Shown here piece by piece: positions 9,459-64,000 of a stretch of 64,000 bases of DNA; the stretch's first letter is position 1; each line of letters starts with the position of its first letter. The position numbers were made by a program, and so were the translations under genes. The notes beneath the pieces were generated by a model. The model ran no database searches. It had not been told where the DNA came from and saw only the letters and a program-made list of their open reading frames with translations. Origin of the DNA: Trypanosoma brucei (Eukaryota); assembly GCA_000002445.1 (NCBI GenBank), contig CM000207.1, forward strand, positions 1,856,001-1,920,000. The letters run 5' to 3'.

Positions 9459-9769
9459 TAGTCTGGAAAAGGGGGCAAATACAAGAATTTGAACGTAAAA
9501 TTTAAAGTACCAGTTAGCAAACACCTATATCTTTGACAACCATAGACGACATCATTACTAAGGAGCACGAACAGCACTTCCTTTAATTATTTATTAAAAC
9601 AAAAAAATACGCCCTACACTTGCCTTGAAAAAAATAAGCGAAAATTAATTACTCTGTCCTCTTATTTTTGCAAACGCATAAAGAATTAAAGACAAAAAGA
9701 TTCAAGAGGCACAAGAAGTGGATATCACTGTTTATGATTGTGCTGGTTTTGTTTCGTAAGCGCGTATAC

Positions 9770-9856
9770 AATATTACTGATGTATAACACGATATTCAGG
9801 TAAAGATTATCAGGAGTAACTGACTGAGATAACATCATGCACCACTCTGACCAATA
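9770..9856 (+). ncRNA. Second candidate C/D-box snoRNA in the repeat unit (recurs at +662 and +1324)
   Basis: A C-like box CUGAUGU at 9777-9783, two overlapping internal CUGA motifs at 9820-9827 (candidate D'), and a CUGA at 9847-9850 (candidate D). Overall length is about 85 nt. This is weaker than the 9964 element. Confidence 0.25.
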
Positions 9857-9963
9857 CTTCTCCCCTACTGTGGTTATGGAATATGTTTCCCTCCATGATG
9901 CCATGACAAGACTATAAGAGCACAGTTTGAACTGACTTCACAAGACGGACGAGAACGTCGCTG

Positions 9964-10050
9964 CAATATTCTGATGATTGGAAGGGCATATGGGTGAATA
10001 TATGTGACAGTGAAGCACAATTTACACGGATTCACCCTGACTTATATTTT
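9964..10050 (+). ncRNA. Candidate C/D-box snoRNA, copy 1 of 3
   Basis: A perfect C box UGAUGA sits at 9972-9977 and a D box CUGA at 10037-10040, 65 nt apart. A possible D'-like GUGA lies near 10005. Flanking terminal complementarity is present: AAUAUU 5' of the C box and UUAUAUU 3' of the D box. The element recurs at +662 and +1324. Confidence 0.4.
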
Positions 10051-10625
10051 AATGCCGGTGTTATCCGCCAGTGTTGTGCCAGATATATCAGCTGTTTCCT
10101 CTATGATGTTAAAAGAAGTTTTGTAGTAGGGTAAAATCTGACATCCGACCATGAAGGTACGAATTTAATGTGCTTTCATGTGCTTCTGCTATTGTGGTTG
10201 CACAGAGGCGCTATGTCTGAGAATTTCTATCTTTCTCCACTTCTTTTACTTACTTTCCTCCTTCACTGCTTTACTCCCACACTATTTTTTAATCGTTGTT
10301 ACAACTGCTTGGTTCGAGTGCCCTCAGGTATTGTGGTGTTTGTTGCTTATCGCCATCACAGGTTCAAGAGGCACAAGAAGTGGATATCACTGTTTATGAT
10401 TGTGCTGGTTTTGTTTCGTAAGCGCGTATACAATATTACTGATGTATAACACGATATTCAGGTAAAGATTATCAGGAGTAACTGACTGAGATAACATCAT
10501 GCACCACTCTGACCAATACTTCTCCCCTACTGTGGTTATGGAATATGTTTCCCTCCATGATGCCATGACAAGACTATAAAAGCACAGTTTGAACTGACTT
10601 CACAAGACGGACGAGAACGTCGCTG

Positions 10626-10712
10626 CAATATTCTGATGATTGGAAGGGCATATGGGTGAATATATGTGACAGTGAAGCACAATTTACACGGATTCACCCT
10701 GACTTATATTTT
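10626..10712 (+). ncRNA. Candidate C/D-box snoRNA, copy 2 of 3
   Basis: Same element one repeat period downstream, with the C box TGATGA at 10634-10639 and the D box CTGA at 10699-10702. Confidence 0.38.
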
Positions 10713-11287
10713 AATGCCGGTGTTATCCGCCAGTGTTGTGCCAGATATATCAGCTGTTTCCTCTATGATGTTAAAAGAAGTTTTGTAGTAGGGTAAAATC
10801 TGACATCCGACCATGAAGGTACGAATTTAATGTGCTTTCATGTGCTTCTGCTATTGTGGTTGCACAGAGGCGCTATGTCTGAGAATTTCTATCTTTCTCC
10901 ACTTCTTTTACTTACTTTCCTCCTTCACTGCTTTACTCCCACACTATTTTTTAATCGTTGTTACAACTGCTTGGTTCGAGTGCCCTCAGGTATTGTGGTG
11001 TTTGTTGCTTATCGCCATCACAGGTTCAAGAGGCACAAGAAGTGGATATCACTGTTTATGATTGTGCTGGTTTTGTTTCGTAAGCGTGTATACAATATTA
11101 CTGATGTATAACACGATATTCAGGTAAAGATTATCAGGAGTAACTGACTGAGATAACATCATGCACCACTCTGACCAATACTTTTCCCCTACTGTGGTTG
11201 TGGAATATGTTTCCCTCCATGATGCCATGACAAGACTATAAAAGCACAGTTTGAACTGACTTCACAAGACGGACGAGAACGTCGCTG

Positions 11288-11374
11288 CAATATTCTGATG
11301 ATTGGAAGGGCATATGGGTGAATATATGTGACAGTGAAGCACAATTTACACGGATTCACCCTGACTTATATTTT
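11288..11374 (+). ncRNA. Candidate C/D-box snoRNA, copy 3 of 3
   Basis: Same element two repeat periods downstream. Confidence 0.38.
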
Positions 11375-11904
11375 AATGCCGGTGTTATCCGCCAGTGTTG
11401 TGCCAGATATATCAGCTGTTTCCTCTATGATGTTAAAAGAAGTTTTGTAGTAGGGTAAAATCTGACATCCGACCATGAAGGTACGAATTTAATGTGCTTT
11501 CATGTGCTTCTGCTATTGTGGTTGCACAGAGGCGCTATGTCTGAGAATTTCTATCTTTCTCCACTTCTTTTACTTACTTTCCTCCTTCACTGCTTTACTC
11601 CCACACTATTTTTTAATCGTTGTTACAACTGCTTGGTTCGAGTGCCCTCAGGTATTGTGGTGTTTGTGGCTTATCGCCATCACAGGTTCAAGAGGCACAA
11701 GAAGTAGATATCACTGTTTATGATTGTGCTGGTTTTGTTTCGTAAGCGCGTATACAATATTACTGATGTATAACACGATATTCAGGTAAAGATTAATAAT
11801 GAGTAAATGTATTAATTTTTCTTTACTATTATTTTAACTAATTAGCTGACGGCTGTGTGTTTTGAAGTCTGTGTGTTGTACTTGGTATGTATTGTTATTG
11901 TTTG

Positions 11905-59612: not shown

Positions 59613-60057
59613 GCAGCTCCCATTCTTAATTGCAGCATCAGGCAATATTGGCATTCGCCGGAACAGGAAAGCAGCACAGGATATGCTCCTTGACGCACCG
59701 TAGGTTTCTGCATCTCAAGGACAATGCAATTAGCCTCTTTGTACATTTTAACGGCAGAAGCAAGAATATCTTCAATATTACATTTTTATTGTGTATCTCA
59801 AAAAATAAAAAATAAAAAACATCTAACAATCTTCCTTTGTTGAGCTTACATCCTTTCGGTAGGTAAAAAAAAAAATGACAAAAAATATTAAGTTAAAAAC
59901 ACACTAACAAGAAAAAATATATATAATCATCGAACACAAGACACCGTCATCATTACATTCGTCAAAAACGCAAAATTGACATCAACAAAACACTCACACA
60001 TATATTAGTCACGCAGCAAGAGGGAAAAGCAGAATTGAAAAAAAAATTTATAAAGAA

Positions 60058-63633
<3,576 letters not shown>

Positions 63634-64000
63634 GGAATGAAGGCGACCGAGATACTAATGTGACGGACCTCGTCGGCTTGCTTTACTGTATACGCAGGAT
63701 CGTGATGATATTAACCCTGCTCCGCTACTGAGTGTTGAAGCATGAAACGATATCCTTCAGGGCTACTGATGCCTGCGTGGGCAGTGTATGGGGTGTGACT
63801 TCCCTTTCATTAACTTCTCTTGTACATGCGTTGAAGCACAATCACACATATAAACGTATGCAACCTGGCGAGTGTAGGCCCGCCAGCTACCACGTGGAGT
63901 GTATACTCTCTATCTCTACGACGGTCGTTCTACCGGGCCAAGAAGCGGCGTCTGTTACTCAACAGTGGTTTCATTCATATGTTGTGTGACGTAGTGGCCA

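What the first reader, a model, noticed from the sequence alone, without database searches (positions are those of the whole stretch)
9701..11795. 662-bp x3.2 tandem array carrying multiple C-box/D-box pairs: a likely reiterated snoRNA gene cluster
The array lies between the coiled-coil gene and the cystathionine-lyase-like gene. Its hydrophobic repeat-locked ORFs do not look like coding sequence.

Each 662-bp unit contains at least four UGAUG(A/U/C) motifs, each followed 35-70 nt downstream by CUGA. The best pair is the C box UGAUGA at 9972 and the D box CUGA at 10037, spaced 65 nt, with a terminal stem flanking it (AAUAUU before the C box, UUAUAUU after the D box).

Trypanosomatid snoRNA genes are characteristically organised as clusters of several C/D and H/ACA-like snoRNAs that are tandemly reiterated and transcribed polycistronically. 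If this is such a cluster, the window holds about 12 or more snoRNA gene copies. I could not confirm any guide-target complementarity by eye, so this remains a hypothesis.
Basis: partly seen in the sequence, partly recalled or inferred. Interest (0 to 1): 0.6.

Follow-up and report, generated by a model that had tools for sequence, protein, structure and literature searches.

The report
Known trypanosome snoRNA gene cluster TB9Cs3
The 662-bp tandem repeat is the already described Trypanosoma brucei chromosome-9 snoRNA cluster TB9Cs3: each unit encodes three C/D and two H/ACA-like guide RNAs that direct methylation and pseudouridylation of ribosomal RNA, so it is real but ordinary.

Summary
A 662-bp unit is repeated 3.2 times at 98-99% identity (9698-11795). 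Each unit has four UGAUG(A/U/C) motifs and nine CUGA motifs on the + strand.

The interpretation, a reiterated snoRNA gene cluster, is correct, and the cluster is already known. Rfam matches TB9Cs3H1 and TB9Cs3H2 above their gathering scores in every full unit. Published northern probes for Tb9Cs3C3 and TB9Cs3H1 map exactly, once per unit.

Each unit encodes five snoRNAs in the order C1, C2, H1, C3, H2. That gives 15 intact genes, plus a truncated H2 at the left edge and a truncated C1 at the right edge.

I tested guide function against six kinetoplastid-type rDNA contigs from metagenomes. Only three complementarities of 10 nt or more are conserved in all six, and each ends exactly 1 nt before a CUGA. 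The fifth-nucleotide rule places them at the published sites SSU Gm1676, SSU Am2096 and LSU-beta Um1435. Both H/ACA pockets also find conserved LSU sites.

Its "C box" at 9972 overlaps the D box of C2, and its "D box" at 10037 lies inside the H1 hairpin.

Novelty: already known. Interest: low.

The parts
9698..11795 (+). Tandem array: 3 full 662-bp units (9698, 10360, 11022) plus a 112-bp partial fourth unit (11684-11795). This is snoRNA cluster TB9Cs3.
   Evidence: the repeat finder gives 662-bp spacing and 98-99% identity. There are 7 variant positions.
9698..9718 (+). Truncated 3' remnant of TB9Cs3H2 at the left edge of the array (lower-stem 3' strand plus AGA box only).
   Evidence: The array homology starts inside H2. 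The sequence upstream of 9698 is unrelated.
9770..9856 (+). TB9Cs3C1, copy 1 (C/D; ends approximate). C box UGAUGU 9778-9783, D' CUGA 9820 or 9824, D guide 9836-9845, D box CUGA 9847-9850.
   Evidence: The guide CAUGCACCAC ends 1 nt before the D box. It is complementary to SSU GUGG*UGCAUG in 6/6 rDNA units. Published target is SSU Gm1676 (PMC9283944). There is a weak Rfam snR55/Z10 hit at 9774-9852.
9889..9986 (+). TB9Cs3C2, copy 1 (C/D). Terminal stem CCCUCC 9889-9894 / GGAAGGG 9980-9986, C box UGAUGC 9896-9901, D' guide 9920-9930, D' CUGA 9932-9935, D box CUGA 9971-9974.
   Evidence: The guide GCACAGUUUGA ends 1 nt before D'. It is complementary to SSU UCAA*ACUGUGC in 6/6 rDNA units. The terminal stem appears in the MFE fold. 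Published target is SSU Am2096.
10012..10086 (+). TB9Cs3H1, copy 1 (single-hairpin H/ACA-like). Pocket strands UUACAC / GCCAGU, AGA box 10081-10083.
   Evidence: Rfam RF01555 scores 77.7 bits against a gathering score of 45. The published probe maps to 10067-10086. The hairpin fold has z = -2.8. The pocket matches LSU ACUGGC-UU-GUG in 6/6 rDNA units.
10099..10225 (+). TB9Cs3C3, copy 1 (C/D; ends approximate). C box UGAUGU 10104-10109, D' guide 10125-10136, D' CUGA 10138-10141, D box CUGA 10217-10220.
   Evidence: The published Tb9Cs3C3 probe maps exactly to 10197-10221. The guide AGUAGGGUAAAA ends 1 nt before D'. It is complementary to LSU UUUU*ACCCUACU in 6/6 rDNA units. Published target is LSU-beta Um1435.
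10317..10381 (+). TB9Cs3H2, copy 1 (single-hairpin H/ACA-like). It straddles the unit boundary. Pocket strands CUCAGGUA / GUUCAAGA, AGA box 10376-10378.
   Evidence: Rfam RF01556 scores 81.5 bits against a gathering score of 50. The pocket matches LSU UGAAC-UA-UGCCUGA (5+7 bp) in 6/6 rDNA units. Published target is LSU-alpha Psi939.
10432..10518 (+). TB9Cs3C1, copy 2.
   Evidence: Unit 1 coordinates +662. Guide and CUGA at 10498-10507 and 10509.
10551..10648 (+). TB9Cs3C2, copy 2.
   Evidence: Unit 1 coordinates +662. Guide and CUGA at 10582-10592 and 10594.
10674..10748 (+). TB9Cs3H1, copy 2.
   Evidence: Rfam hit at 10676-10744. Probe maps to 10729-10748.
10761..10887 (+). TB9Cs3C3, copy 2.
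   Evidence: Probe maps to 10859-10883. Guide at 10787-10798.
10979..11043 (+). TB9Cs3H2, copy 2.
   Evidence: Rfam hit at 10979-11040.
11094..11180 (+). TB9Cs3C1, copy 3.
   Evidence: Guide and CUGA at 11160-11169 and 11171.
11213..11310 (+). TB9Cs3C2, copy 3.
   Evidence: Guide and CUGA at 11244-11254 and 11256.
11336..11410 (+). TB9Cs3H1, copy 3.
   Evidence: Rfam hit at 11338-11406. Probe maps to 11391-11410.
11423..11549 (+). TB9Cs3C3, copy 3.
   Evidence: Probe maps to 11521-11545. Guide at 11449-11460.
11641..11705 (+). TB9Cs3H2, copy 3. It has a U-to-G change in the apical loop and reaches into the partial fourth unit.
   Evidence: Rfam hit at 11641-11702, 82.1 bits. Variant at unit offset 646.
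11756..11795 (+). Truncated TB9Cs3C1 at the right edge of the array. It keeps the 5' part with the C box at 11764-11769 and lacks D' and D.
   Evidence: Repeat homology ends at 11795.

Best explanation
The array is the known Trypanosoma brucei chromosome-9 snoRNA gene cluster TB9Cs3.

**Content.** Each 662-bp unit encodes five small nucleolar RNAs on the + strand, in the order C1, C2, H1, C3, H2.

**C/D RNAs.** The three C/D RNAs pair a 10-12 nt antisense element, ending 1 nt upstream of a D or D' box, with rRNA. The methyltransferase of the C/D snoRNP then 2'-O-methylates the rRNA nucleotide paired to the fifth guide position:
- C1 (D guide): SSU Gm1676.
- C2 (D' guide): SSU Am2096.
- C3 (D' guide): LSU-beta Um1435.

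**H/ACA-like RNAs.** The two H/ACA-like RNAs are single hairpins. Each has an internal pocket, with an AGA box 14 nt downstream of it and 3 nt from the 3' end. The pocket pairs on both sides of a target uridine, which the CBF5 snoRNP isomerises:
- H2: LSU-alpha Psi939, in UGAAC-U-A-UGCCUGA.
- H1: a site in the LSU 3' half, in ACUGGC-U-U-GUG.

**Shown here:** the repeat, the family matches, the boxes, the guide-target complementarities and their exact register.

**Taken from the literature:** that the RNAs are expressed, that the target sites are modified, and that silencing constructs named for C3 and H2 reduce the modification and disturb LSU pre-rRNA processing.

**Inferred from established trypanosomatid biology:** the array is transcribed as part of the surrounding + strand polycistronic unit and the snoRNAs are cut out of that precursor. 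Tandem reiteration raises gene dosage and is kept homogeneous by recombination.
For: **Family matches.** Rfam matches above the gathering score in every full unit: TB9Cs3H1 at 77.7 bits (threshold 45) and TB9Cs3H2 at 81.5-82.1 bits (threshold 50), full length.

**Published oligonucleotides.** All map with 0 mismatches: the Tb9Cs3C3 northern probe once per unit, the TB9Cs3H1 probe once per unit, and the four silencing primers.

**C/D guide test.** Among 9 CUGA boxes per unit, exactly 3 have a Watson-Crick guide of 10 nt or more, ending 1 nt upstream, that is complementary to rRNA in all six kinetoplastid-type rDNA units. The same test scores 0 of 314 CUGA in the rest of the window excluding both clusters (both strands) and 0 of 4 on the array's minus strand. 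Scanned over the whole window, the only other hits are two in the neighbouring snoRNA cluster TB9Cs4.

**Register check.** When the three predicted nucleotides are anchored at the published positions, the base identity of neighbouring published Nm sites is reproduced: 13 of 13 in L010 (table in PMC9283944).

**H/ACA pockets.** H2 has one 5+7 bp site conserved in 6/6 rDNA units, and no shuffled pocket reached full-length pairing. H1 has a 6+3 bp site in 6/6 units, against 9% of shuffled pockets.

**Structure.** Both hairpins have 14 nt between the upper stem and the AGA box (sequence). The H1 fold has z = -2.8, and the C2 terminal stem is predicted.

**Variation.** 5 of 7 variable positions lie outside intact snoRNA genes, and none falls in a box, guide or stem.

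**Literature.** RNA-seq abundance for all five RNAs, and silencing of C3 and H2 (PMC6411936). Psi-map table crediting Liang et al. 2005 (PMC4855143).
Against: - T. brucei's own rRNA was not available. The targets were tested on metagenomic kinetoplastid-type rDNA, so only conserved targets could be seen.
- The second antisense element of each C/D RNA (upstream of C1 D', C2 D and C3 D) has no conserved rRNA match.
- The raw number of conserved complementarities of 9 nt or more in the unit (6) is not above chance (4.1-4.7). The signal lies in their length and their register to CUGA.
- H1's pocket match is short (6+3 bp) and is reached by 9% of shuffled pockets.
- The C/D RNAs show no significant overall fold, which is normal for this class.
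- Exact 5' and 3' ends of C1 and C3 are estimates.
- Expression and polycistronic transcription were not testable here.
Confidence: 0.97

Rival explanations
1. A plain intergenic satellite whose C/D-like motifs are chance occurrences, with no RNA product.
For: The C/D candidates have no significant fold. The raw count of conserved 9-mers complementary to rRNA is at chance level.
Against: - Two Rfam families match above the gathering score in every unit.
- Published probes and primers map exactly.
- The register of the guides to CUGA is unique in the 64-kb window apart from the other snoRNA cluster.
- The RNAs are reported as expressed.
Confidence: 0.01
2. The repeat encodes small proteins from the repeat-locked ORFs (93 aa and 73 aa; 10168-10449 and 10178-10399, and their copies).
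For: The ORFs recur in each unit.
Against: - They match no Pfam family.
- They run across the 3' part of C3, a pyrimidine-rich spacer and H2, all of which are explained as RNA genes.
- The third copy of the 93-aa ORF is shortened to 71 aa where the array ends. ORF length therefore depends on repeat continuation, not on a conserved stop codon.
Confidence: 0.01
3. One reading: a fourth C/D snoRNA with C box UGAUGA at 9972, D box CUGA at 10037, and a terminal stem AAUAUU / UUAUAUU.
For: The motifs exist with 65-nt spacing.
Against: - 9972 overlaps the CUGA at 9971-9974, which closes C2. C2's terminal stem strand GGAAGGG lies at 9980-9986.
- 10037 lies inside the TB9Cs3H1 hairpin, whose extent is fixed by Rfam and by a published probe.
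- The 20 nt upstream of 10037 have only scattered 8-9 bp matches, G-U pairs included, at different places in each rDNA.
- The published tables read here name only C1-C3, H1 and H2 for this cluster.
Confidence: 0.02

Closest known systems
T. brucei snoRNA cluster TB9Cs3 (TB9Cs3C1, C2, C3, H1, H2). The papers read here credit it to Liang et al. 2005, RNA 11:619. Rfam families RF01555 and RF01556.
   Same: It is this locus. The Rfam matches are full length, the published probes and primers match 100%, and the guide targets match the published Nm and Psi sites.
   Different: Nothing substantive. The number of copies in this window (3.2 units) may differ from other assemblies or strains. I could not read the original description (not held).
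Yeast and human modification-guide snoRNAs for the same conserved rRNA sites. From my own memory, not tested: snR40 for 18S Gm1271, snR80 for 25S Psi776, snR46 for 25S Psi2865.
   Same: The mechanism is the same and the rRNA positions appear homologous. The weak Rfam hit of C1 to snR55/Z10 (25 bits, below threshold) fits a guide for the neighbouring nucleotide of the same 18S stretch.
   Different: - The trypanosomatid H/ACA-like RNAs are single hairpins with AGA instead of ACA, not double hairpins.
- The genes are tandemly reiterated mixed clusters, not intronic or independent genes.
- There is no sequence-level family membership (below gathering score).
Neighbouring cluster TB9Cs4 (window about 59.7-64.0 kb).
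   Same: It lies on the same strand, is also a mixed C/D plus H/ACA-like cluster, and is also repeated.
   Different: The repeat unit is much longer (3576 bp), the snoRNAs and targets are different, and it runs off the end of the window.

Membership tests
Rfam RF01555 (TB9Cs3H1) and RF01556 (TB9Cs3H2) | Covariance-model score at or above the curated gathering score, over the full model length. | tested here: met
   H1 scores 77.7 bits (threshold 45), model positions 1-68 of 68. H2 scores 81.5-82.1 bits (threshold 50), positions 1-63 of 63. Three copies of each.
Box C/D snoRNA (2'-O-methylation guide) | C box (RUGAUGA-like) near the 5' end and D box (CUGA) near the 3' end, on the same strand. 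| tested here: met
   C1: 9778 and 9847. C2: 9896 and 9971. C3: 10104 and 10217. The C boxes are slightly degenerate (UGAUGU, UGAUGC, UGAUGU).
Box C/D snoRNA (2'-O-methylation guide) | Short terminal stem bringing the C and D boxes together. | tested here: inconclusive
   C2 has a clear 6-bp stem in the MFE fold. For C1 and C3 only 3-4 bp can be drawn by eye and the fold does not predict them.
Box C/D snoRNA (2'-O-methylation guide) | Antisense element of 10 nt or more, complementary to rRNA, ending 1 nt upstream of D or D'. | tested here: met
   One element per C/D RNA (10, 11 and 12 nt), conserved in 6/6 rDNA units. 3 of 9 CUGA in the unit qualify, against 0 of 314 in the rest of the window excluding both clusters.
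Box C/D snoRNA (2'-O-methylation guide) | The rRNA nucleotide opposite the fifth guide position is 2'-O-methylated. | not testable with these tools
   The predicted nucleotides coincide with published Nm sites SSU G1676, SSU A2096 and LSU-beta U1435 (PMC9283944). The register is cross-checked. Loss of Um1435 after silencing is reported in PMC6411936.
Box C/D snoRNA (2'-O-methylation guide) | Stable small RNA bound by fibrillarin/NOP58. | not testable with these tools
   RNA-seq abundances for C1, C2 and H1 were read directly from Table S2, and gradient and silencing data for C3 and H2 are given in PMC6411936. A northern blot of Tb9Cs3C3 is in PMC9841430.
Trypanosomatid single-hairpin H/ACA-like snoRNA | Single hairpin with an internal pocket, and an AGA box 3 nt from the 3' end. 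| tested here: met
   Both RNAs fold as a lower stem, pocket and upper stem. AGA lies at 10081-10083 (H1, whose end at 10086 is fixed by the probe) and at 10376-10378 (H2).
Trypanosomatid single-hairpin H/ACA-like snoRNA | About 14-16 nt between the target uridine position (base of the upper stem) and the AGA box. | tested here: met
   14 nt in both. H1: GCCAGU + GUUGUGC + C. H2: GUUCAAGA + GGCAC + A (sequence).
Trypanosomatid single-hairpin H/ACA-like snoRNA | Bipartite pocket complementarity flanking an rRNA uridine. | tested here: met
   H2: 5+7 bp in 6/6 rDNA units. H1: 6+3 bp in 6/6 units, with a 9% chance level, so H1 is weaker.
Trypanosomatid reiterated polycistronic snoRNA cluster | Mixed C/D and H/ACA-like genes in a tandemly repeated unit, on the strand of the surrounding genes. 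| tested here: met
   Five genes per 662-bp unit, 3.2 units, + strand like both flanking ORFs.
Trypanosomatid reiterated polycistronic snoRNA cluster | Transcription as one precursor, followed by processing into individual snoRNAs. | not testable with these tools
   Inferred from established knowledge of trypanosomatid snoRNA clusters. There are no transcript data here.

The most novel reading that the evidence does not exclude
Each C/D RNA carries a second antisense element: upstream of C1 D' (9820 or 9824), C2 D (9971) and C3 D (10217). None of them has a conserved rRNA target in six kinetoplastid rDNA units. These elements could act on trypanosome-specific sequences (rRNA spacers, srRNAs) or on other small RNAs, rather than guide methylation of conserved rRNA. 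The literature already suggests this for C3 (ITS3 and sr1) and notes a 13-bp complementarity between C2 and TB2Cs1C1.

Separately, the primers listed for the 'TB9Cs3C3' silencing construct bracket C1, C2, H1 and C3 together. The rRNA-processing phenotype attributed to C3 might therefore be a whole-cluster phenotype.
Probability: 0.3. Interest if true: 0.3.

Novelty: already known. Interest (0 to 1): 0.08.

Why it matters
It matters little as a discovery, because the cluster, its five RNAs and their targets are published and two members are Rfam families.

The value here is confirmation and correction.

The check also gave a simple and very specific detector for C/D guides. It requires a complementarity of 10 nt or more, conserved across rDNA units, that ends 1 nt before a CUGA. 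In 64 kb it fired only in the two known snoRNA clusters.

Tried and rejected
- **TRF.** It found nothing at the array because its longest period is 500 bp. The repeat finder was used instead.
- **Literature access.** Liang et al. 2005 (PMC1370750) is not held. The supplements of PMC9841430 (T. brucei rDNA sequence S14) and PMC3273796 are not held. T. brucei's own rRNA was therefore unavailable, and I used kinetoplastid-type rDNA from one metagenome scan.
- **Metagenome hits.** More than half of the 75 hits lacked the other rRNA landmarks and were treated as chance 17-mers. They were dropped after screening for rRNA landmarks.
- **Complementarity to single rDNA contigs.** Matches of 11-12 nt are at chance level, since shuffles reach 11-14 nt. 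They were discarded.
- **Count of conserved matches.** The count of conserved matches of 9 nt or more (6) is not above chance, so I did not use it as evidence.
- **H1 pocket.** The search requiring both arms to be at least 4 nt found nothing conserved. Relaxing to 3 nt gave the conserved 6+3 site.
- **Weak Rfam hits.** snR55/Z10, Z221/R21b and GlsR5 (minus strand) are all far below gathering score and were not used for membership.
Full report
**1. The observation**

The tandem array is real. The repeat finder gives copies starting at 9698, 10360, 11022 and 11684. Spacing is exactly 662 bp and identity is 98-99%. The fourth copy is partial and its homology ends at 11795. TRF missed the array only because its longest period is 500. 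Just seven positions differ among copies.

On the + strand of one unit there are four UGAUG(A/U/C) motifs (9778, 9896, 9972, 10104) and nine CUGA motifs. Other windows of the same size in this sequence average 0.10 such pairs and never exceed one.

The flanks are as described. An 865-aa ORF without a solid family lies upstream. A Cys/Met-metabolism PLP enzyme (PF01053, E = 1e-128) lies downstream. Both are on the + strand. The repeat-locked ORFs of 93 and 73 aa match nothing.

**2. What it is**

An Rfam scan of the whole window at gathering thresholds finds the trypanosomatid H/ACA-like snoRNA families TB9Cs3H1 (10014-10082, and the same at +662 and +1324) and TB9Cs3H2 (10317-10378, and the same at +662 and +1324). 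All matches are full length and on the + strand. The family names say 'T. brucei chromosome 9, cluster 3'.

Published oligonucleotides confirm the identification:
- The Tb9Cs3C3 northern probe of PMC9841430 maps with no mismatch at 10197-10221, once per full unit.
- The TB9Cs3H1 probe of PMC4855143, described as antisense to positions 55-75, maps at 10067-10086. This fixes H1 at about 10012-10086.
- The four silencing primers of PMC6411936 also map exactly.

The tables read here name five RNAs for this cluster: C1, C2, C3, H1 and H2. Their published targets are C1 to SSU Gm1676, C2 to SSU Am2096, C3 to LSU-beta Um1435 and H2 to LSU-alpha Psi939. H1 has a site in the LSU 3' half. The papers credit the cluster to Liang et al. 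2005, which I could not open.

**3. Independent test of guide function**

T. brucei rRNA was not available. I spent the single metagenome scan on a trypanosomatid-specific 18S 17-mer, the reverse complement of primer TRY927R, which I quoted from memory. About 30 of the 75 hits carry universal rRNA landmarks. Six of them span SSU to LSU: L010, L012, L040, L051, L058 and L061. Rfam confirms eukaryotic SSU, 5.8S and LSU on the three I scanned.

I then asked, for every position of the unit, which stretches are Watson-Crick complementary to the sense strand of all six rDNA units. Matches to single contigs are at chance level. The number of conserved matches of 9 nt or more (6) is also at chance (4.1-4.7).

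The three longest conserved matches are the only ones of 10 nt or more, and each ends exactly 1 nt before a CUGA:

| Guide (window) | Sequence | CUGA at | Assigned to |
|---|---|---|---|
| 9836-9845 | CAUGCACCAC | 9847 | C1, D box |
| 9920-9930 | GCACAGUUUGA | 9932 | C2, D' box |
| 10125-10136 | AGUAGGGUAAAA | 10138 | C3, D' box |

This configuration occurs at 3 of 9 CUGA in the unit. It occurs at 0 of 314 CUGA in the rest of the window excluding both clusters (both strands), and at 0 of 4 on the array's minus strand. Scanned over the whole window, it fires only in this array (9 sites) and at two sites in the neighbouring snoRNA cluster.

The fifth-nucleotide rule predicts a G in SSU GUGG*UGCAUG, an A in SSU UCAA*ACUGUGC, and a U in LSU UUUU*ACCCUACU.

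I anchored these three nucleotides at the published numbers 1676, 2096 and 1435. The contigs then carry the right base at every neighbouring published Nm position that I checked. These were SSU 1652, 1674, 1700, 2054, 2123, 2134 and 2154, and LSU-beta 1388, 1400 and 1413. In L010 the agreement is 13 of 13, and the other contigs show a few mismatches. The guides therefore point to the published sites.

**4. The H/ACA-like RNAs**

Both fold as a single hairpin with an internal pocket (H1 z = -2.8). Both have AGA 3 nt from the 3' end, and 14 nt between the base of the upper stem and the AGA box.

A bipartite pocket search gave these results:
- **H2:** one site, UGAAC-U-A-UGCCUGA (5+7 bp), in the LSU 5' half of all six rDNA units.
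- **H1:** ACUGGC-U-U-GUG (6+3 bp) in the LSU 3' half of all six units. Shuffled pockets reach a conserved site of this score 9% of the time, so H1 is supported more weakly by this test alone.

**5.

The 'C box' UGAUGA at 9972 overlaps the CUGA at 9971-9974. That CUGA is the D box of C2. C2 runs from the C box at 9896, through D' at 9932, to this D box. It is closed by a CCCUCC/GGAAGGG stem (9889-9894 and 9980-9986) that the MFE fold recovers.

The 'D box' at 10037 lies in the upper part of the H1 hairpin and has no conserved guide upstream.

The gene count is 15 intact genes. In addition, an H2 3' remnant lies at the left edge (9698-9718) and a C1 5' remnant lies at the right edge (about 11756-11795).

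**6. How it works**

*Shown here:* sequence, boxes, guides, register and hairpins.

*From the literature:*
- Abundances for C1, C2 and H1 in small-RNA libraries were read from Table S2.
- C3 and H2 co-sediment with pre-ribosomal complexes.
- Silencing with the construct named for C3 lowers Um1435.
- Silencing named for C3 or for H2 causes LSU precursors to accumulate and srRNA1 to drop.

*Inferred from established trypanosomatid biology:* the array is transcribed with the surrounding + strand unit and the snoRNAs are excised. Reiteration supplies dosage.

Five of the seven variable positions lie outside intact snoRNA genes: four in spacers and one in the truncated H2 remnant at the left edge. 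The other two lie outside boxes, guides and stems. This is mild evidence of constraint.

**7. What remains open**

The second antisense elements of C1, C2 and C3 have no conserved rRNA target in my test. The literature proposes ITS3 and sr1 contacts for C3, and notes a 13-bp complementarity between C2 and TB2Cs1C1. Testing these needs T. brucei's own rDNA.

**8. Verdict**

This is a correct first-stage call of an already known locus. Novelty: already known. Interest: low.

Noticed in passing
window 59700-64000 (+): A second known snoRNA cluster, TB9Cs4. Rfam finds TB9Cs4H2 at 60300-60370 and 63876-63946, but TB9Cs4H1 only at 63590-63651. A direct repeat (60058-60357 and 63634-63933, 99% identity) has 3576-bp spacing and runs off the end of the window. 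The earlier H1 copy is missing because homology starts at about 60058. The guide test finds a C/D guide, CCUGCUCCGCU, 1 nt before the CUGA at 60152 and at 63728. It is complementary to LSU AGCGGAGCAGG in 6/6 rDNA units.
   Followed up: partly
window 9742-10301 (and the same at +662 and +1324): The primers listed as the 'TB9Cs3C3 silencing construct' in Table S1 of PMC6411936 map at 9742 (sense) and 10282-10301 (antisense). The smallest amplicon is therefore 560 bp and contains C1, C2, H1 and C3, not C3 alone, although the Methods speak of cloning the mature snoRNA. If the table is accurate, the phenotype attributed to C3 may reflect co-silencing of four snoRNAs.
   Followed up: partly
window 11690-11709: The published TB9Cs3H2 antisense primer matches exactly only the last copy, which carries a G-to-A variant at 11706 (unit offset 22). 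This suggests that the primer was designed on this same reference sequence.
   Followed up: yes
window 10223-10316 (and the same at +662 and +1324): The spacer between C3 and H2 is strongly pyrimidine-rich (CUUUCUCCACUUCUUUUACUUACUUUCCUCCUUCACUGCUUUACUCCCACAC). It is the source of the 'hydrophobic' repeat-locked ORFs. Whether it plays any role in precursor processing is unknown.
   Followed up: no
L061 2292-2619 (-): One of the metagenomic kinetoplastid-type rDNA contigs has a group I intron match inside its LSU rRNA gene. The score is 50.6 bits, just at the gathering score.
   Followed up: no
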